DNA of 64,000 nucleotides from the NCBI RefSeq assembly GCF_006345805.1, contig NW_021832834.1:1-64000 (forward strand). Direction: 5' to 3'. The translations under genes were made by a program, and so were the position numbers. The first letter of the stretch is position 1. Each line of letters begins with the position of its first letter. Of this stretch, positions 1 through 64,000 are shown in pieces. The stretch comes from Octopus sinensis. Taxonomy: Eukaryota. A model generated the notes under the pieces. It was not told the DNA's origin and did not search any database. It saw nothing but the letters and a program-made list of their open reading frames with translations.

Positions 1-2500
1 TCTCAGCACCCTCTCAAATACCTTGATGATATGAGAGGTGAGTGAGATTGGACGGTACTTCACGGCAAGCGATTTGTTTCCTTTTTGAAAATGGGACAAC
101 AGACTGGGATAGAAGGTCCTCTGGTATATATCCAGCATCCAGTGAGTTCCGCCACAGATTGGCTAGAGGGAGTGCAAGTTGGTTTGACACATCTTCAAGA
201 CACAAGCAGGGAACCTATCGGGACCTACTGCTGAATTATGCTTCATTTCCTTTATTGCTGCTAAGACATCAGGAGCGCCAATGTTAGTCCGATAAAGTGT
301 ATTGGGGAGTAACATCACTGATACAGCCCAGATCAGTCATATCAGGATTGCTGGAAAACAGAGCAATATTGTTTCTGCAATATCTCTCCCATGGTTTTGG
401 CATTGTCTTGAAGAGTACCATTTTCATCAATCAGAGGGCCACACAGTAGAACCAGTGACTCTGTGTTTTTTTTGCAAATGAAAAGAACACTTTGGATTGA
501 GTTTGATCTTCTCAATGGCCCAGGCTCTTCAGCTCTTCGCTGACTATTGATGATAGACATCATGTTGTTTTGGAGTTTATGTTTTTTAATCTCTAGCGAC
601 GAGATGGCAGTCAGGTTGGTGTGTTGCTGTTGACAGTATTTCAGCATGTTGATCTTTTTGTTGATTCTTTTAATTTTCCTTATGAGAGATTTTCTATTTC
701 TAGGGATTCGACACTTAGATTTGTTGCAGATCTTAATGGGTGTGTCTTGCACATATGTTCGTGATGGTGTCTACAAGTGACTGCCAGGACTTTTTGTGTA
801 GTGGGTGTGTATGTGTGCGTGAAGGACCAATCGACTTGTGCAAGATCATTATTGATCGCTTCCCAGTTTGCATTGTGGAAATCCATAGTGTCAAATGGAT
901 GAACAGGAGAGATGACATTTGTTTTGCATTTTGGCCAGTGAAATCTCAGATCACAGAGAACCATGTCATGGTCGGAGAGTAGGGTTTTCTCCACTGCAAT
1001 ATGTGGATAGTATCAGTGTGATTGCTGAAAATTAAGTCTAAGGCGTTTTTATGACATCTCTTGGTTCGAGTACCAGTTGGGACAGGAAGAAATCATCCAT
1101 GAAGTCAAGAAGCGATTCCACTGCCTCCCTGTCAGGGGTTGAGAGAGAAGAACCTGGCGGCAGACTGTTTGTAGACCGTCAACCCCGGGAAGGTTGAAGT
1201 CTCCCATCATTAAAATGTGTCAGGTTGACACTGCCGAATGAAACACTTTATGCTGTTGAGGCATTCCTTGAAGCATGGTAGGGGCGTTTGGGGTGGTCTG
1301 TAGAGCCCAACTACTGTTAAGTTGTTGGTTTGACTGAATACAGCGACTGCTTCGCAGTATCCATTGGAAAATATGTTCATGGCTTCTGTTGAGAATGATC
1401 ATGGAATAAATGGCAGTCCCACCCTTTCTTCTGCCAGCACGATCAGCACGAATGTTTTGAATTTTGACTTTCACCTCGGCTTCCAAGTGGAGGTCACTAA
1501 GATGGGTTTCAGTGAGGACGAAGAAAGGGATGTGGTTTGGATGGGCCTCGACCCAGTCCTCCAGGAATCTTATCTTCCATTTTTGTGTATGGTGGAAGGG
1601 CTGATGCCTTGGGCATTAAGCAGAAATGTTGAGGCGAGAGTGGATGGTTTTAATTGTTTTGGTGATTTGTTTATTTGATTGCTTTTTAATGGCATGTGCA
1701 GTGGGGTAATTTGGGGTGGTGGTGGTGGGTGATAGCTCGATGTTTTTTTCCAGTTCTTTTGCTAGATTCATCATAGCTAAAAAAGAGAAGAAGAGGTGGT
1801 TTCCTGTCTAGGGAACCACAGGTGACTGTGGCCGCGGCTATTTTTATGTGACTTGTTATCTTTAAATGTCCGACGAGTCCCCGGGAGATGGGTAAAGGGG
1901 CAATCCCTGTGCAAACACAATCTGTCTCGCTGGGAATAGCGGCAGATTTGGGGATTCCTTGTTTGAGATATTGGTGGTTGTGGTGATGTTGTATTATGGT
2001 GGTTGCTGTTGTAGTTTGTGGGGATAGAGCGTTTTGTTCCAGGTAAATGGGTGAATTTGCAGTCTCTATCTGCACAGACTATGGCGAAGAGAATATCGGC
2101 AAATGATGGGGTTTCGAGTGGGTGTGTAGGTGCGCGTGTGTGTGGAGCTGTGAAAGGTGTAGATGATAGTTTGTTGAAGTTTTGGCGACCTTTGTGACCT
2201 GTAGGAGGTAAATTCCTTGAGATAGCATTAGTAGTAGTAGTTGTAGTAGTAGTAGTAGGTAGAAAAGATGTTGACAGTGGTAATGATTGAGGAGGTCGAT
2301 TCCAAGACAAATATGTTTGTCGATACATAGTGGGTGTAGTACTAGTAGTAGTAAGCAGAGGAGATGGTGTTGACAATGATGATGATTGAGCTGCTGGGGC
2401 AGTGAAAGGAAGGGGTGGTGCTTCCTGCTGTGTGACCCTGATGACTGGGGTGTCAATCGTTTCGTTTAGCAAATCGGCCATGTAGATGATAAATCGCCAC
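1..2500 (-). mobile_element. CR1/Jockey-superfamily LINE, 5' half (ORF1 with CCCH fingers, APE endonuclease, start of ORF2); frameshifted, continues off the left edge
   Basis: Minus-strand ORF fragments contain APE motifs (TFLLNAQGI, RADRAGRRKGGTAIY, EKTLLSDHDMVLC) and LANLWRNSLDAGYIP, homologous to the + strand element at 56531-60251. ORF1 ATG at 2481, only 19 nt from the flanking (TA)n. Confidence 0.9.
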
Positions 2501-2574
2501 ATATATATATATACATATATAATATATATATACATATATATATACATATATATATATATACATATATACATATA

Positions 2575-2616
<42 letters not shown>

Positions 2617-2963
2617 TAATATAATAATATACATATATATATATAATAATATATATATATACATATATATCTATAATATATACATATATATATCTATATA
2701 TATATTATTACATATATATATACATATATATAATATATATATATATATATATACATATATCATATATATATAATATATACATATATATATATACATCTAT
2801 AATATATATATATAACATATATATATACTATATATATATATATATATATATTATTATATATATATACATATATATATATATACATATATATAATATATAT
2901 ACATATATATTATATATACATATATATATTATACATATATTATATATATACATATATATATAC

Positions 2964-2996
<33 letters not shown>

Positions 2997-2997
2997 C

Positions 2998-3045
<48 letters not shown>

Positions 3046-3217
3046 TTATATATATATATATACTTTATATATATATATATACATTTATATATATATATAT
3101 ACATTTATATATATATATATACCATTTATATATATATATATACATTTATATATATATACATTTTATAATATATATATTATATATATATATATATACATTT
3201 ATATTATATATATATAC

Positions 3218-3252
<35 letters not shown>

Positions 3253-3383
3253 TTATATATATATATATATATATATATACAACATTTATATATATATATA
3301 TATACATTATAATATATATATATATATATACACATTTATATATATATATATACACATTTATATATATATATATATATATATAC

Positions 3384-3419
<36 letters not shown>

Positions 3420-3590
3420 TTATATGATTGATTGATTGATTGATTCTAGTTTCAGCTTATGAGCTGTGGCCATGCTGGGGCACCGCCATTTGGTGTTGCT
3501 ACTTGGTTTCACTTCATGGAGGCTTTCTAGCAACTGCTATTTGGTGCATGAGAGAGTTCGATGCAGCTGCCCTCATCTGCCCCTCCTGCC

Positions 3591-3634
<44 letters not shown>

Positions 3635-3749
3635 TACATTATATATATATATATACACATTTATATATATATATATATATATATATACATTTATATATAT
3701 CTATATATATATATATACAGATTATAATATATATATATATATATACATT

Positions 3750-3782
<33 letters not shown>

Positions 3783-4398
3783 GATATAATTTATATATAT
3801 ATATATATATATACATTTGTATATATTATATATATATATACATTTATATATATATATATATACATTATATATATATATATAACATTTATATATTATATAT
3901 ATATATATATATATAGATATATATATATATATATATATATATACATTTATAACTTAGAAAGGTTTTGGCCAGTATTGGCCCAGGCCATGTCTAACTTAAT
4001 AGCACCACCTGGTGAAGTCTTTCAGTTCAGGATTTGGGCACCAAGGCCATTCGAGCAGAGAGTTATTGTTGCGGAGACATATCCGGGTGTGGGTGGTTTG
4101 TCCGGTACTGTTTGAAGGAATTTGTCCAAAGACTTCTTGAATTTTGTGTGGTCAGTTTCTTTTGTGACGTGCCCTGGTGTAATGTTGAAGAGAGCAGGTC
4201 CAATTGAGGTGAAATAGTTGTGCCGTATTGTCGTTATGTGATGCGATTTAGATTTTTGTTGTGGACGGATGGCACGTGGTCCAAGCTTGTGCATTTGAGG
4301 TGATGCCAACATCATCGGACTTGATACATTTATTATATATATATATATATATATATATCTATATATATCGTAATATATATATATATACATTTACATTA

Positions 4399-4433
<35 letters not shown>

Positions 4434-4442
4434 TATATATAT

Positions 4443-4478
<36 letters not shown>

Positions 4479-4511
4479 TTATATATATATATATTATATA
4501 TATATATATAC

Positions 4512-4545
<34 letters not shown>

Positions 4546-4636
4546 TTATATATATGTATATATATACATATATATATATTATATATTATATATATATCTA
4601 TATATATTATATATATTATATATATATATATCTATA

Positions 4637-4728
<92 letters not shown>

Positions 4729-4747
4729 AGTATATACATATATATAT

Positions 4748-4783
<36 letters not shown>

Positions 4784-4850
4784 TATATATATATATATAT
4801 ATAATATAATATACATTTATATATATGTATATATATGTGTGTGTGTGTGT
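2501..4850. repeat. Large interrupted (TA)n microsatellite field with embedded retroelement fragments
   Basis: Directly visible (TA)n with TACA/TACATT interruptions. Confidence 0.97.
3951..4325 (-). mobile_element. 5'-truncated 3' end of the same CR1-like LINE family, embedded in (TA)n
   Basis: Encodes [31 protein letters not shown], matching the C-terminus at 59633-60142; shares the 3' UTR motif CAGGTGGTGCTATTAAGTTAGACATG. Confidence 0.9.
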
Positions 4851-5342: not shown

Positions 5343-53678
<48,336 letters not shown>

Positions 53679-56360: not shown

Positions 56361-56436
<76 letters not shown>

Positions 56437-56530
56437 TTGTATGTATAAAAATAAATATATATATATACATAAATATACATATGTACATAGATATATATAT
56501 ACATATATAAACATATATATATATATATAT

Positions 56531-59500
56531 CACTACTGCCAGAATAGAAAAACCACTACTACAACCAAATAAAATCCCCTGCCGTTACTATTCTAAAGGC
56601 AATTGTAGATTTGGCCCCAGCGGCACAAACAACAATGGACGCTGTGCTTTTTCCCATCCGACCTTATGTCGTAGACTTGTTATGGGCACCTGTCCATACG
56701 GGATAACAGGAAAAAATTGCCCCCACCTCCACCCCAAATACTGTCCTAAATACAGAATCTATGGTTCTGATCCTAAATACGGATGCATAAAAGGCAATGG
56801 ATGCACCTTATTCCATCCTAAACTGTGCCAAACTTCTGTCTCACAAAGGATGTGCCTGAACCCAGAATGCAACCACCACCATCTGAAGGGCACAAAACGA
56901 TCACAGAATAAATATAAACAGGAACAGAGGAAATCTAGGACAACAACAAGAACAAAATACAACCACGTCTCCCCTCCTACAATCAAACAACGTAGACAGA
57001 ACCATGAAAAAACACCAAATAACGCCAACATGAAATATGTATCCTCTGACCAAGTGGCAAACCAAACAAGTAACTCTTTTTTACTGACATACCTAGAAAA
57101 TATGAAGGCCGACCTAAGCCAGGAGATCCAGCGAGCTATCACCAACCATCTATGCAAATCACAAGGACCACTCACCCATTACCAACTTCCCTTACCTCGA
57201 CATTCCTGTTAAATGTACGTGGCATCAACCCATCAATTATTGCCCAAAAATGGAAGATCCCATATATAGAGAGTTGGCTTGCCGAAATGGCACATTGCTT
57301 CCCTTTCTTTATCCTTACCGAGACTCACCTGAACAACACCCATATGGACGCAGAGGTGAAAATAAAAGATTTCACCATTGTTCGTGCGGATCGCACAGAC
57401 CGAAATAAGGGAGGGACAGCCATCTTTATCCATGACTCCTTTTCACTTGATGCCAAGGACATATTTTCCAATTGCTACTGTGAATCGGTATCACTATACA
57501 ACAAAGCCAAGGACATAACCATTGTTGGTCTTTACAGGCCTCCCCAGGCACCTCTAAAGTACTTTGAAGAGTGCCTTAGCAAAGTCAAGTCTTTCCTTCG
57601 GAAGTACCACTCCGGAAACATAATAGTGATGGGTGATTTTAACCTCCCTCATGTGAACTGGCCCACAAATACTCTGAAGTTAGGCAAGTGCTCTACATCA
57701 GATAGAGCAGCAGCAGAACTGCTCTTTAATCTGATGGATGAGTATTTCCTGACTCAGCTAGTGCTTGAACCAACGATACAGAATAAAACGATCTTGGATC
57801 TGGTATTGACCAACCACTCTAGCTACGTTCACAGTATTTCAGTCGAAAAAACTCTCCTCTCAGACCACGACATGGTACTCTGCAATCTTAATTCCCGACA
57901 TATAAGAACCAAACCAGCCAATCCCACTCCATAGCACCCATTTGACAACATAAACTTCCACAAAGCGGACTGGGGAACAATCAGAAAGAATCTGTCTTCC
58001 ATTGACTGGTCTTTTACTCTCAATTCCCCTCATATTGAGACCGCGTGGCAGCACTTTGAAAACATTGTCACCTATACATGCTCTAAACACGCTCCCAAGA
58101 AATCTAGTAACACAAACAGAAACCGGCTCCCTAAAAAGAAAAAAAACACTCATCAGGCGCATCAAAAGACTCAACAAAAAAATCAACCAATTAAAATATT
58201 CCCACACACAACATCCACATTCAACAACAATGAAAAGACTAGAGCTGGAAAAACTTCATCTGCAGACCAACATGAAAACCTCCATTGAAAGGAACAATGG
58301 GTAATCAAAAACATCAAACAGAACCCAAAAGTGTTCTATTCTTATGCAAATAAGCATAGAACCACTGTCTCACCCATTGGGCCATTGATTGATGAAAACG
58401 GCATTCCCCAACACGATGCTAAAGAAATGGCAGAAATACTGCAGAAACGATCCTGCTCTGTCTTCAGTGTTCCCACTGATATTGACGTAAGGGAAACGAA
58501 CGAAGTTGACTCCCAACACAAAATCTCAGACATAACCTTCACTGCCACCGACATCGTAGCAGCAATAAATGAGGTCAAACATTACTCTGCTGTAGGCCCT
58601 GATAGATTTCCCGCTAGTCTCCTGAAGGAATGTAGATACCAACTTGCAGTCCCTCTAACCAACCTCTGGAGAAATTCGTTAGACGCAGGTTATATACCGG
58701 AACAGTTTCCATCCCAGTTGGTCATCCCGGTTTTCAAACAGGGAAACTGATCCCTCGCAGTCAACTATCGCCCAATCTCACTCACCTCCCACATCATTAA
58801 AATGTTTGAAAGAGTGTTAAGATCAAGGATAGCTGACTTCCTGGAGACCCACAAACTCCTAAATGCAAATCAGCATGGCTTTCGCTGTGGCAGGGACTGT
58901 CTAACACAGCTCTTACACCACATTGAAGATGTACTCAAAGCCTTGGGAACAGGTTCGAACTCTAACGTCATATATCTTGACTTCAGTAAAGCGTTCGACA
59001 GGGTAGACCATAACAGCCTACTCTCAAAATTGGCAAACGTTGGAATCCGTGGGAAAGTTCTACACTGGATTCAGTATTTCCTGGCGAATAGAACACAACA
59101 TTGTAGTTTATGGAGTCCACTCAAACCCAGCAAAAGTCACCAGCGGTGTTCCCCAGGGAACTGTTTTGGGTCCGCTACTCTTCATAATTTACGTAAACGA
59201 CCTTTCCAGTGTCGTACATTACTGCAAAGTGAAAATATTTGCTGATGACACTAAGCTCCAGCAAATCGTCAATGAAGAAGCAGACCGAACTCAACTCCAG
59301 TCTGATCTATATGCTGTGAGTCAATGGGCAGACAGAAACAAAATGCAACTGAATGAGGGAAAATTTGAGCTGATGCATTTTGGAAGAAATTCCTCACTAA
59401 AACAACCATACTCTCTTCCTTCAGGGGAACCGCTCACAGCCTCTAACAATATCAGAGACCTGGGTGTAATTGTTGATGACGATCTCAGTTGGAGTGCACA

Positions 59501-60251
59501 CATCAACAAGAAGGTCGATATAGCTCGTAGGATGAGTTCCTGGATCTTAAGAACTTTCCGGTCCAGAGAACAAGGTGTCATCATACCACTTTTTTCCTCC
59601 TTTGTCCGGCCACACCTTGAATACTGCTGCCCATGTGGTCTCCTCACACAAGACAAAACATCTCCAGAATTGAGTCACCCCAGAGGGCACCCACTAAACA
59701 AATTGAAGGCATGGCTGCTCTCGATTATTGGGATCGCCTTAAAGCCTTGAAACTTTACTCCCTCCAGCGTCGCCGTGAGCGGTACATCATTTGTACGATG
59801 TGGAAAATATACCGCCAACTTTGCCCAAACGACCTAAACATTAGCTTCAAGGTTCATCCAAGACTTGGACCACGGGCTATACGTCCCCTGCCCAATTCAA
59901 GATCACAACATACATGTACACTGCAACATAATTTCTTTTCCTCAACAGGCCCTGCCCTATTTAACATTGTCCTGAGGGAGATCAAAGAGGAAAAGGATCC
60001 CACCAACTTTAAACAGAGTCTGGATAGATTCCTTCAAAGAATACCAGATAAGCCACCCATAATTGGATACAACTCACCCAACAAGAACTCACTACTTGAA
60101 CAAAACTGGATACAACTCACCCAACAAGAACTCACTACTTGAACAAAACTTGACTTAAACAGGATTCGAATAATCCTATCAGGTGGTGCTATTAAGTTAG
60201 ACATGGCCTGGACCAATCTTTGGTCGAAACATATCTAAGTTTATCTAAGTT
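56531..60251 (+). mobile_element. Nearly full-length CR1-like LINE (ORF1 with 4 CCCH fingers; ORF2 APE+RT, frameshifted) between (TA)n tracts
   Basis: APE (LLNVRGI, TETHL, GDFN, LDLVLTN, SDH) and RT (QHGF, YLDFSKAFD, GVPQGTVLGP, FADD) motifs; 43-bp tandem duplication at 60064-60149; (TATCTAAGTT)2 tail. Confidence 0.96.
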
Positions 60252-60440
60252 TATATATATATATATAATTCTTAGGAAATATATATAACTGCTAAAAAGA
60301 AGTGCTATGGTCGAATCTGATACAAAAGATAGGAATTAAGATATAAACTGAACTTAGGCAATCATATTCATGCATTATAAATTCGACTTAAAATGCGTAT
60401 ATATTTTTTAATACATATCGAAACATATTTCATGTATGTT

Positions 60441-63316: not shown

Positions 63317-63423
<107 letters not shown>

Positions 63424-63424
63424 T

Positions 63425-63484
63425 TTGATAGGTTTCGGCCATTATTGGCCCAGGACATGTCTAACTTAATAGCACCACCTGGTG
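63425..63484 (-). mobile_element. ~60-nt 3' terminus of the (TA)n-associated CR1-like LINE
   Basis: Reverse complement of caggtggtgctattaagttagacatgtcctgggccaataatggccgaaacc within (TA)n. Confidence 0.85.
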
Positions 63485-63492
63485 CTATATAC

Positions 63493-63572
<80 letters not shown>

Positions 63573-64000
63573 ATAATATATATAAATATATATATAATAT
63601 ATATATATAATATAATATATATATATATATATAATATATATATATTATATATATATATACATATATATATATATGTATATAGCACCAGGTGCTATAATCA
63701 TGTTCATCATTTCCTGGTTTGCCATTAAAAAACGCCGAAACAATGCATTGTCTAAAGAAGAACAGGGTAAATGTTTTTTTAATTTTTCCTCTGATTTCGG
63801 AATTACTACTATTTGCGGTTAGAGCCCTGGCTGCTATTTCTAGTGGGTCGAACGGCCTATTGTAGCCGTTCCTCAATTGTTGTTGAATTTATTCATAGTC
63901 TCTGACTATTTCCTCTTTCTCACTAGACCGCTGGTGGCAAAATAATTTCTATTGAATTTTTTGCTACCCTAAATTGATTAATTGATAATTCTCTGATTAA

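What the first reader, a model, noticed from the sequence alone, without database searches (positions are those of the whole stretch)
56531..57212. CR1-like LINE whose ORF1 is a tandem CCCH zinc-finger protein
Seen: in frame from 56580 are four fingers, C-x7-C-x12-C-x3-H, C-x7-C-x8-C-x3-H, C-x13-C-x5-C-x3-H and C-x8-C-x4-C-x3-H+LKGTKR, then a short helical segment overlapping ORF2. The divergent relative at 1777-2481 (-) has two C-x8-C-x4-C-x3-H+LPGT(K/R)R fingers (the first split by a frameshift) after an S/T/P-rich tract. Established: Jockey-superfamily ORF1s typically use RRM+CCHC, PHD or esterase modules, while CCCH fingers are RNA-binding modules (TTP, Nab2 type). Inference: a distinct ORF1 class with variable finger number, perhaps binding AU-rich RNA.
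Basis: partly seen in the sequence, partly recalled or inferred. Interest (0 to 1): 0.7.

Follow-up and report, generated by a model that had tools for sequence, protein, structure and literature searches.

The report
CCCH-finger LINE with Gag-Pol-like frameshift
This is a broken copy of a CR1-like LINE retrotransposon whose first protein carries CCCH zinc fingers, a type absent from the ORF1 classification we read, and whose two genes overlap from a U_UUU_UUA site that likely makes ribosomes slip one base back, retrovirus-style, to produce the reverse transcriptase.

Summary
In detail: four CCCH fingers with the stated spacings lie at 56580-56882, upstream of a decayed endonuclease/RT ORF2. 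The module is not local: 1,691 protein clusters match. The core is three fingers (7-8-3, 13-5-3, 8-4-3). 89 of 90 hits long enough to judge carry an N-terminal PHD, so the window copy, which has no start codon, is probably 5'-truncated. 'CCCH instead of PHD' is likely wrong: it is PHD plus CCCH. AU-rich RNA binding is untested. New lead: the near-invariant Phe-Leu that starts ORF1's last helix is encoded U_UUU_UUA in both window elements. In the main copy the -1 frame is open from there into the endonuclease. Across 125 homologues, only 1 has a residue before Phe-Leu that cannot end in U, and dipeptides that risk -1 stops are depleted only downstream (123 vs 190±11). This predicts -1 ribosomal frameshifting into an ORF1-ORF2 fusion. 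No stimulatory RNA structure was found and nothing was measured. Ten paper searches found neither feature; Repbase/Dfam were not searchable. Verdict: new variant of a known kind.

The parts
56531..60251 (+). Element E1: decayed, probably 5'-truncated CR1-like LINE between two (TA)n tracts
56580..56657 (+). Extra N-terminal CCCH finger (7-12-3), resembling core finger 1; shared only with P0002 among 150 hits
56667..56900 (+). Core three-finger module (7-8-3, 13-5-3, 8-4-3) plus LKGTKR; basic (17 K/R vs 2 D/E over all four fingers); pLDDT 93-98
57077..57083 (+). U_UUU_UUA heptamer encoding ORF1 Phe-Leu; predicted -1 frameshift site; last -1-frame stop at 57071-57073
57068..57161 (+). C-terminal helix of ORF1, overlapping the open -1 (ORF2) frame; in-frame ORF2 AUG at 57152
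57210..57212 (+). ORF1 stop (TAA), formed inside the Leu-Asn codons of the endonuclease's first motif
57203..57880 (+). APE endonuclease of ORF2 (PF14529 E 2e-15; PF03372 E 9e-7)
58751..59471 (+). Reverse transcriptase of ORF2 in two frames (PF00078 E 1e-16 and 1e-11); ORF2 has several stops and frameshifts
60180..60251 (+). Conserved 3' box with two hairpins (fold z -3.66; one compensatory pair among 3 copies), then two copies of a 10-nt tail unit
1..2500 (-). Element E2: divergent relative with S/T/P tract, duplicated last finger (2116-2029, 1959-1870), U_UUU_UUA at 1784-1778 and APE from 1626; runs off the window
3926..4326 (-). Element E3: 3' fragment of the family inside the same (TA)n tract as E2
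63395..63487 (-). Element E4: about 90-nt 3' end of the family inside a (TA)n tract

Best explanation
This is a dead, likely 5'-truncated copy of a CR1-like LINE whose ORF1 in full-length relatives is predicted to read helical domain + PHD + three CCCH fingers + helix, with the fingers likely binding the element's RNA and ORF2 likely made by a -1 ribosomal frameshift at a U_UUU_UUA site. Proposed working, step by step: (1) Most ribosomes would make ORF1p (frame shown; translation inferred). Its basic, aromatic-bearing CCCH module would take the RNA-packaging role that RRM and CCHC domains play in other ORF1 types (inferred), and its C-terminal helix may oligomerise (untested). (2) A minority would slip back one base at the Phe-Leu codons and run into APE and RT, giving a PHD-CCCH-APE-RT fusion that lacks the helix, at a fixed low ratio as in Gag-Pol. 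The site and the open frame are shown in E1; the family-wide constraint is inferred from protein statistics; slippage itself is untested. (3) ORF2p would recognise the conserved 3' hairpins and prime reverse transcription at the target (from general LINE biology), here apparently with a preference for (TA)n tracts (4 insertions only). The PHD would read chromatin near the target (proposal in PMC4120745, untested).
For: Family: 1,691 representatives at E<=0.001 and 648 at E<=1e-10. The PHD C4HC3 ligands are invariant or nearly so in 74 long hits; the profile hits the MLL PHD at E 2e-7; PHD is present in 89 of 90 hits with at least 150 aa upstream. LINE context of the homologues: P0123 runs from the fingers into an APE start (38% identity to E1, E 5e-11); 10 of 157 carry a 2A-like GxExNPGP leader, a feature reported for non-LTR elements (PMC3708506); many full-length members have longest contigs of about 5.0-5.7 kb, about one element long; the last residue is an NNY-codon residue in 66 of 125 vs 17% in the tails, as expected if the stop overlaps the APE Leu-Asn as in E1. 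RNA binding: K/R exceeds D/E in the finger region in 138 of 138; aromatics are conserved after Cys2 and before His; the weak best fold matches are CPSF30, MBNL and ZAP. Frameshift: the heptamer is in the ORF1 frame in 2 of 2 window elements. In E1 the -1 frame has 16 stops in 179 codons upstream and none from the site to the APE. Of 125 Phe-Leu rows, 1 has Q/E/K/M/W before Phe; leaving out helix-cap residues it is 1 of 32 vs 664 of 1,208 in the linker (p 5e-10). Dipeptides that risk a -1 stop number 123 vs 189.7±10.9 after Phe-Leu, the reversed order 198 vs 194.5, and the linker 394 vs 394.7; the depletion is strongest in the first 25 residues (50 vs 89). In 86 de-duplicated rows: 0 with Q/E/K/M/W before Phe, and 85 vs 122±9 dipeptides. 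The +1 frame is necessarily closed in 97 of 125.
Against: No stimulatory structure 3' of the site: fold z +1.42 in E1 and -1.24 in E2. In E2 the -1 frame from the site stops after 32 codons and misses the APE frame by one base, so an indel must be assumed. DNA is in hand for only two elements; for the homologues the codons are inferred from residues. S/D/T/N before a helix and E at the third position also fit a helix capping box (recalled), which explains part of the signal. Both elements have an ORF2-frame AUG just ahead of the APE (57152 in E1), so reinitiation is possible. An open run of 43 codons has p about 0.02 in E1 alone. The three closest hits (P0002-P0004, 209-237 aa) lack a PHD and begin with Met, so this sub-lineage may have truly lost it. 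Fold searches gave no match at E<=0.001. Only 1 of 231 fetched proteins shows direct APE linkage. No locus with the whole element was found elsewhere.
Confidence: 0.6

Rival explanations
1. Same element and ORF1, but ORF2 is made by termination-reinitiation at an AUG in the overlap, and Phe-Leu is only a capped-helix protein motif.
For: There is an ORF2-frame AUG 17 codons before the APE motif in E1 (57152) and 23 codons before it in E2. Reinitiation is described for SART1 and discussed for L1 (PMC3894237; PMC5009743). The commonest residues before Phe are S, D, H, N and T, mostly helix caps. No stimulator was found.
Against: It does not explain why non-cap residues before Phe avoid Q/E/K/M/W (1 of 32). 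It does not explain why -1-stop-prone dipeptides are most depleted in the first 25 residues after the site, upstream of where the AUGs lie in E1 and E2. It does not explain Val/Ala/Gly enrichment after Phe-Leu (30 of 64 vs 154 of 1,197 non-acidic residues).
Confidence: 0.2
2. The conserved U-run is a 3' splice acceptor (pyrimidine run + AG), and ORF2 is translated from a spliced RNA.
For: A G-starting codon follows Phe-Leu in 91 of 125 rows, which would give U-run-AG, and E2 has exactly that. It also predicts an open -1 frame from the site.
Against: An acceptor needs AG every time, but 34 of 125 rows cannot have it, and E1 and its three closest hits read Phe-Leu-Leu.
Confidence: 0.12
3. One reading: a PHD-less, CCCH-only ORF1 class, complete in this copy, that binds AU-rich RNA as TTP or Nab2 do.
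For: P0002-P0004 are short, start with Met and have no PHD. No PHD or N-helix profile match above 5 bits was found anywhere in the window's six frames. E2 has an ATG at 2481 followed by an S/T/P tract.
Against: E1 has no start codon and abuts a (TA)n tract. Gene callers also print alternative starts as Met (general knowledge). PHD is present in 89 of 90 long hits, and low-complexity linkers like E2's tract separate PHD from fingers in them. The spacings differ from TTP and Nab2 (recalled). PHD loss in this sub-lineage is not excluded.
Confidence: 0.15
4. Most of the 1,691 homologues are a host PHD-CCCH gene family, and this LINE lineage captured a fragment of it.
For: The hits have no genomic context or names, and no ORF1-ORF2 fusion over 1,030 aa was found.
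Against: P0123 links fingers to an APE, and 2A leaders occur. There is a -1 overlap signature and terminal residue bias. One cluster has 33 members, many of them fragments on long contigs. The proteins are called as intact intronless ORFs.
Confidence: 0.05

Closest known systems
CR1-lineage LINEs with PHD-bearing ORF1 (types IC, IIC, IIIA, IIIB and V in Metcalfe and Casane 2014, PMC4120745)
   Same: APE-RT ORF2, CR1-like RT by eye, N-terminal PHD in full-length relatives, modular ORF1.
   Different: No RRM, transposase-22, CCHC knuckle or esterase match in 74 members. It has three CCCH fingers, a helical domain in front of the PHD with no clear fold match (best Z 5.5) and a C-terminal helix. 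'CCCH' is absent from that paper's main text.
Retroviral/LTR Gag-Pol -1 frameshift (HIV-1 U_UUU_UUA; site named in PMC5009743)
   Same: Same heptamer near the end of the first ORF, open -1 frame into the enzyme ORF, often followed by a G.
   Different: This is a non-LTR element; no 3' stimulatory hairpin was found; frameshifting was not measured. In the passages read, recoding in non-LTR elements covered HeT-A gag frameshifting, SART1 stop-start, 2A skipping and a suggested +1 shift in Paramecium.
Cellular tandem CCCH RNA-binding modules
   Same: C3H ligand pattern, basic surface, aromatics at the usual stacking positions (positions recalled); these top the weak sequence and fold lists.
   Different: Own spacing set and a G-x2-G insert in finger 1; all matches are non-significant (best E 0.03 by sequence, 0.35 by fold); Pfam scores below cut-off.
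2A-bearing non-LTR elements (Odon et al. 2013, PMC3708506)
   Same: 10 of 157 relatives have a 2A-like motif ahead of the PHD region; the predicted fusion resembles their 2A-PHD-APE single ORFs.
   Different: There 2A sits in ORF2 in all but one element; here it sits at the ORF1 N-terminus, and the window copies lack that part.

Membership tests
CR1 clade LINE | ORF2 with N-terminal APE endonuclease followed by RT | tested here: met
   PF14529 E 2e-15, PF00078 E 1e-16 and 1e-11
CR1 clade LINE | Non-LTR ends: shared 3' end with short tandem tail, variable 5' truncation | tested here: met
   Three 3' ends at 85% identity over 88 nt, with different 5' lengths
CR1 clade LINE | RT groups with CR1 references in a phylogeny (RTclass1) | tested here: inconclusive
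   No tree was built. By eye the RT resembles the CR1 entries (Hydra, leech, amphioxus, urchin, turtle) more than the four L2/L2A entries in part 7 of 51 of the PMC3708506 supplement; Crack, Daphne, Kiri and Rex1 were not compared
ORF1 type III (PHD, optional RRM) | PHD finger | tested here: inconclusive
   Absent from the window copies, which look truncated; present in 89 of 90 long homologues
ORF1 type III (PHD, optional RRM) | RRM behind the PHD (type IIIB) | tested here: not met
   No RRM family among the 18 Pfam families matched by 74 members; the model shows fingers and disordered linkers there
ORF1 type I (RRM + CCHC) | Gag-like CCHC knuckles after RRM | tested here: not met
   Ligand order is C-C-C-H in all three core fingers; no zf-CCHC or RRM match
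ORF1 types II and IV | Transposase-22 (coiled coil-RRM-CTD) or esterase domain | tested here: not met
   No such Pfam match in 74 members; none among the best 60 of 117 PDB sequence hits shown
TTP/ZFP36 tandem CCCH | Two C-x8-C-x5-C-x3-H fingers with a conserved lead-in (recalled) | tested here: not met
   Spacings are 7-8-3, 13-5-3 and 8-4-3; PF00642 below cut-off
TTP/ZFP36 tandem CCCH | Binding to AU-rich elements | not testable with these tools
   Needs SELEX, CLIP or EMSA
Nab2-type CCCH | Short C-x5-C-x4-6-C-x3-H fingers (recalled) | tested here: not met
   First spacer is 7, 13 or 8; PF14608 E 0.05, below cut-off
-1 programmed ribosomal frameshift signal | X_XXY_YYZ heptamer in the upstream frame | tested here: met
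   U_UUU_UUA in 2 of 2 window elements; compatible residues in 124 of 125 Phe-Leu rows
-1 programmed ribosomal frameshift signal | Open -1 frame from the site into the downstream ORF | tested here: met
   Met in E1; off by one base in decayed E2; statistical support across homologues
-1 programmed ribosomal frameshift signal | 3' stimulatory hairpin or pseudoknot | tested here: inconclusive
   None seen in two decayed copies, z +1.42 and -1.24; pseudoknots are not modelled and no homologue DNA was available
-1 programmed ribosomal frameshift signal | Measured frameshifting | not testable with these tools
   Needs a reporter or ribosome profiling

The most novel reading that the evidence does not exclude
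A large, unrecognised CR1 lineage runs a retrovirus-like expression programme. Its ORF1 is a new type (optional 2A leader, novel helical domain, PHD, triple CCCH, helix), and its ORF2 exists only as a -1-frameshifted PHD-CCCH-APE-RT fusion made at a family-wide U_UUU_UUA site, with the branch in this window targeting (TA)n microsatellites.
Probability: 0.45. Interest if true: 0.82.

Novelty: new variant of a known kind. Interest (0 to 1): 0.66.

Why it matters
How LINEs translate ORF2 is still open; the passages read describe reinitiation, stop-start coupling and 2A skipping, and call the L1 mechanism unknown. A conserved HIV-type slippery site gives a seven-base target for a direct test, and would show Gag-Pol logic in a non-LTR element. 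A fusion product would also bridge two-ORF CR1s and the single-ORF PHD-APE-RT forms. The ORF1 adds an RNA-binding solution with no RRM or CCHC to the five-type scheme and explains over a thousand unnamed 'CCCH proteins' as likely transposon products, which matters for genome annotation.

Tried and rejected
Searches that gave nothing: the word-index search with the finger region; the search for 1,030-2,940 aa fusions, 0 of 2,214 candidates. The 442-2,000 aa search gave 7 hits, none with RT or APE Pfam domains; two long ones carry a doubled helical-PHD unit. ESM Atlas gave only leads under 0.9 (zf-CCCH clusters). Foldseek found no match at E<=0.001 for either model, and the VIA lists were filled by generic helices, so no fold is assigned to the N-terminal helical domain. 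An idea that the module derives from ZAP/PARP12 rests on similar spacing (recalled) and got only E 1.7: not adopted. Prokaryotic genome scans: 0 of 16 pattern matches were ORF1 relatives, and 0 of 55 RT-bearing loci had the ORF1 profile. Plasmids and phages: no match. Rfam gave only two mir-297 hits on the (TA)n flank, far below the gathering score. The RT C-terminal half had no PDB sequence hit. Thirty cluster look-ups gave no organism names, so the taxonomic range is unknown. A second slippery-type heptamer in E1 ORF1 (56711) was rejected because -1 stops follow it. Rows dropped before counts: of 149 hits in alignment A3 (P0151 was not aligned), 138 had Phe in the column and 125 had Phe-Leu with at least 16 following residues; the frameshift statistics use those 125, which favours rows that fit. 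The strict finger regex undercounts (111 with 3, 37 with 2, 2 with 1) because it forbids extra Cys. Not run: RT tree with named references, HHpred, Repbase/Dfam search, complex prediction for the helix.

Full report
Observation. No residue shuffle in 20,000 gave three or more. Downstream lie an APE endonuclease (PF14529, E 2e-15) and an RT (PF00078, E 1e-16 and 1e-11), broken by stops and frameshifts, and a 3' end at about 60251 with a twice-repeated 10-nt unit. There is no start codon before the fingers; the element begins at a (TA)n tract. The relative E2 (2500 to 1, minus strand) is 66% identical over ORF2 and has two copies of the last finger. These differ by 16 synonymous and 7 non-synonymous codons of 29, so the duplication is old and was under selection. 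Two more 3' ends lie at 3926-4326 and 63395-63487.

The family. A phmmer search of 1.84 billion representatives found 1,691 at E<=0.001 and 648 at E<=1e-10; the best 150 were returned. The core is three fingers, 7-8-3, 13-5-3 and 8-4-3, ending in a KGTKR-like motif. Its 12 ligands are kept in 148-150 of 149-150 rows at a median pairwise identity of 44%. 131 of 150 hits show exactly these three fingers; only the window copy and P0002 have a fourth. Of 90 hits with at least 150 residues before the fingers, 89 match a PHD profile built from the family and 73 also match the helical domain before it. The profile of 74 long members finds solved PHD fingers (MLL, E 2e-7). AlphaFold models give high confidence to the helical+PHD part, the three-finger unit and a C-terminal helix, with disordered linkers between. 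No RRM, CCHC, transposase-22 or esterase was matched. So the typical ORF1 is helical domain, PHD, linker, three CCCH fingers, linker, helix, Q/P tail. E1 most likely lost the front by 5' truncation, although its three closest hits are also short and PHD-less, so loss in this sub-lineage remains possible.

Are the homologues LINE proteins? No DNA was available for them. Indirect evidence: P0123 continues from the fingers into an APE start (E 5e-11), the only such case among 231 fetched proteins. Ten of 157 carry a 2A-like motif, which PMC3708506 reports in non-LTR elements. Many full-length members have longest contigs of about 5.0-5.7 kb. Their last residue is F/Y/H/N/D/C in 66 of 125 against 17% in the tails, as expected if the stop overlaps the APE's Leu-Asn codons as it does in E1. 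Organisms are not given.

The junction. The helix opens with Phe-Leu (Phe in 139 of 145 rows, Leu in 131 of 138). In both window elements these codons, with the base before them, read U_UUU_UUA (57077-57083; 1784-1778 minus). In E1 the -1 frame has 16 stops in the 179 codons upstream, the last at 57071-57073, and none between the site and the APE motif 126 nt on. In E2 the -1 frame runs 32 codons and misses the APE frame by one base; a single indel, plausibly in a CCA run, would reconcile it, and that copy has other indels. The homologues were tested from their residues. Of 125 Phe-Leu rows, 1 has a preceding residue with no U-ending codon, against 46 of 125 one position earlier. Without helix-cap residues it is 1 of 32 against 664 of 1,208 in the linker. 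A G-starting codon follows in 91 of 125, and Val/Ala/Gly are enriched beyond Glu/Asp (30 of 64 vs 154 of 1,197). Dipeptides that give a -1 stop when the first codon ends in U number 123 after the site against 189.7±10.9 in local shuffles; the reversed order gives 198 vs 194.5 and the linker 394 vs 394.7. The effect is strongest in the first 25 residues (50 vs 89) and holds in 86 de-duplicated rows (85 vs 122). The +1 frame is forced shut in 97 of 125. Against this reading: no stimulatory structure, ORF2-frame AUGs in the overlap of both elements, a capping-box reading of part of the pattern, rows pre-selected for Phe-Leu, relatedness only roughly controlled, and a splice-acceptor reading that fits 91 rows but not the other 34 or E1.

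Mechanism. Shown: the fingers, the domain order, the heptamer and open frame in E1, and the 3' hairpins (fold z -3.66, one compensatory pair in three copies). Inferred: RNA binding by the fingers (basic in 138 of 138, conserved aromatics, weak resemblance to CPSF30, MBNL and ZAP), -1 frameshifting to a PHD-CCCH-APE-RT fusion, and chromatin reading by the PHD. Six of seven visible element ends have flanks with at least 65% TA/AT steps (the seventh 59%), a level reached by 5.8% of 30-nt windows. This suggests (TA)n targeting, but there are only four insertions in three tracts, the ends were set by eye, and another LINE at 50.5 kb also has a TA tract near its start.

Comparison. The RT looks like the CR1 entries and unlike the L2/L2A entries in the part of the RTclass1 file read; this is by eye, not a tree. 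The ORF1 fits none of types I, II, IIIB or IV; it shares only the PHD with type III. The fingers work like cellular tandem CCCH modules but fail the TTP and Nab2 spacings (recalled).

Literature seen. PMC4120745: parts 1-3 of 6 of the text, passages, and part 2 of 2 plus a search of supplement 1; supplements 2-3 not read. PMC3708506: part 2 of 6, passages, a search and part 7 of 51 of supplement 2; file 1 could not be searched. Passages only: PMC10294476, PMC13405545, PMC5009743 (first 300,000 of 449,034 characters held), PMC3894237, PMC9115989, PMC1947958, PMC5405496, PMC1965478. Not held: Kapitonov and Jurka 2003 and a Kojima review. Khazina and Weichenrieder 2009 is known only through PMC4120745. 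Ten full-text searches listed no paper whose title or abstract start describes a CCCH ORF1 or a -1 slippery site in CR1; most listed papers were seen as listings only. Repbase, Dfam, subscription journals and preprint supplements were out of reach. I recall that frameshifting was suggested for some overlapping-ORF LINEs in older papers (no call), so prior mention is possible.

Verdict. A real feature, partly as interpreted. It is a new variant of a known kind: a PHD + triple-CCCH ORF1 in a large CR1-like family, with a predicted -1 frameshift junction. Interest 0.66.

Noticed in passing
window 2500-4850, 56400-56530, 60252-60270, 63340-63660: All four insertions of this family sit in (TA)n tracts, two in the same tract: possible microsatellite targeting.
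   Followed up: partly
window 60180-60251 (+), 63395-63482 (-), 3926-4012 (-): Conserved 3' box with two hairpins and one compensatory pair, a candidate ORF2p recognition signal.
   Followed up: partly
proteins P0047, P0063, P0066, P0068, P0081, P0117, P0125, P0127, P0137, P0173: 2A-like GxExNPGP motif in an N-terminal leader of ORF1; 7 proteins share an MG(I/V)xxxxYRxxIG start. Activity untested.
   Followed up: partly
proteins P0174, P0175: 1,046-1,172 aa relatives with an acidic N-terminal region and a doubled helical+PHD unit before the fingers.
   Followed up: no
window 30233-30667 and 42577-43272 (+): Exons of an adhesion GPCR (GPS E 1e-14, 7tm_2 E 1e-8). AT-rich invertebrate-type DNA with long (TA)n tracts; a cephalopod source is a guess from recall.
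   Followed up: no
window 15826-16561 and about 18350-18800: A duplicated segment: near-identical minus-strand ORF translations at 16115-16561 and 18354-18794.
   Followed up: no
window 50517-52470 (+): A second, unrelated CR1-like LINE remnant (RT E 3e-31) ending in (ATT)n, with no ORF1 left.
   Followed up: partly
window 26821-28000 (+) and 43671-44174 (-): Mariner-type and Tc1-type transposase remnants.
   Followed up: no
window 31432-31566 (+) and 40763-41170 (-): Short LINE fragments similar to E1's endonuclease (46%) and C-terminus (38%).
   Followed up: no
window about 37700-38530 and 48900-49100: Three copies of a short interspersed repeat, seen as similar ORF translations; possibly a SINE.
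   Followed up: no
loci L002-L053: Head-to-tail arrays of about 6.5-kb two-ORF LINEs (ORF1 with a CCHC knuckle; Tx1-like by recall) in a record titled as a bacterial MAG; likely eukaryotic contamination. L001, L054 and L055 also look like animal LINE DNA in MAGs.
   Followed up: partly
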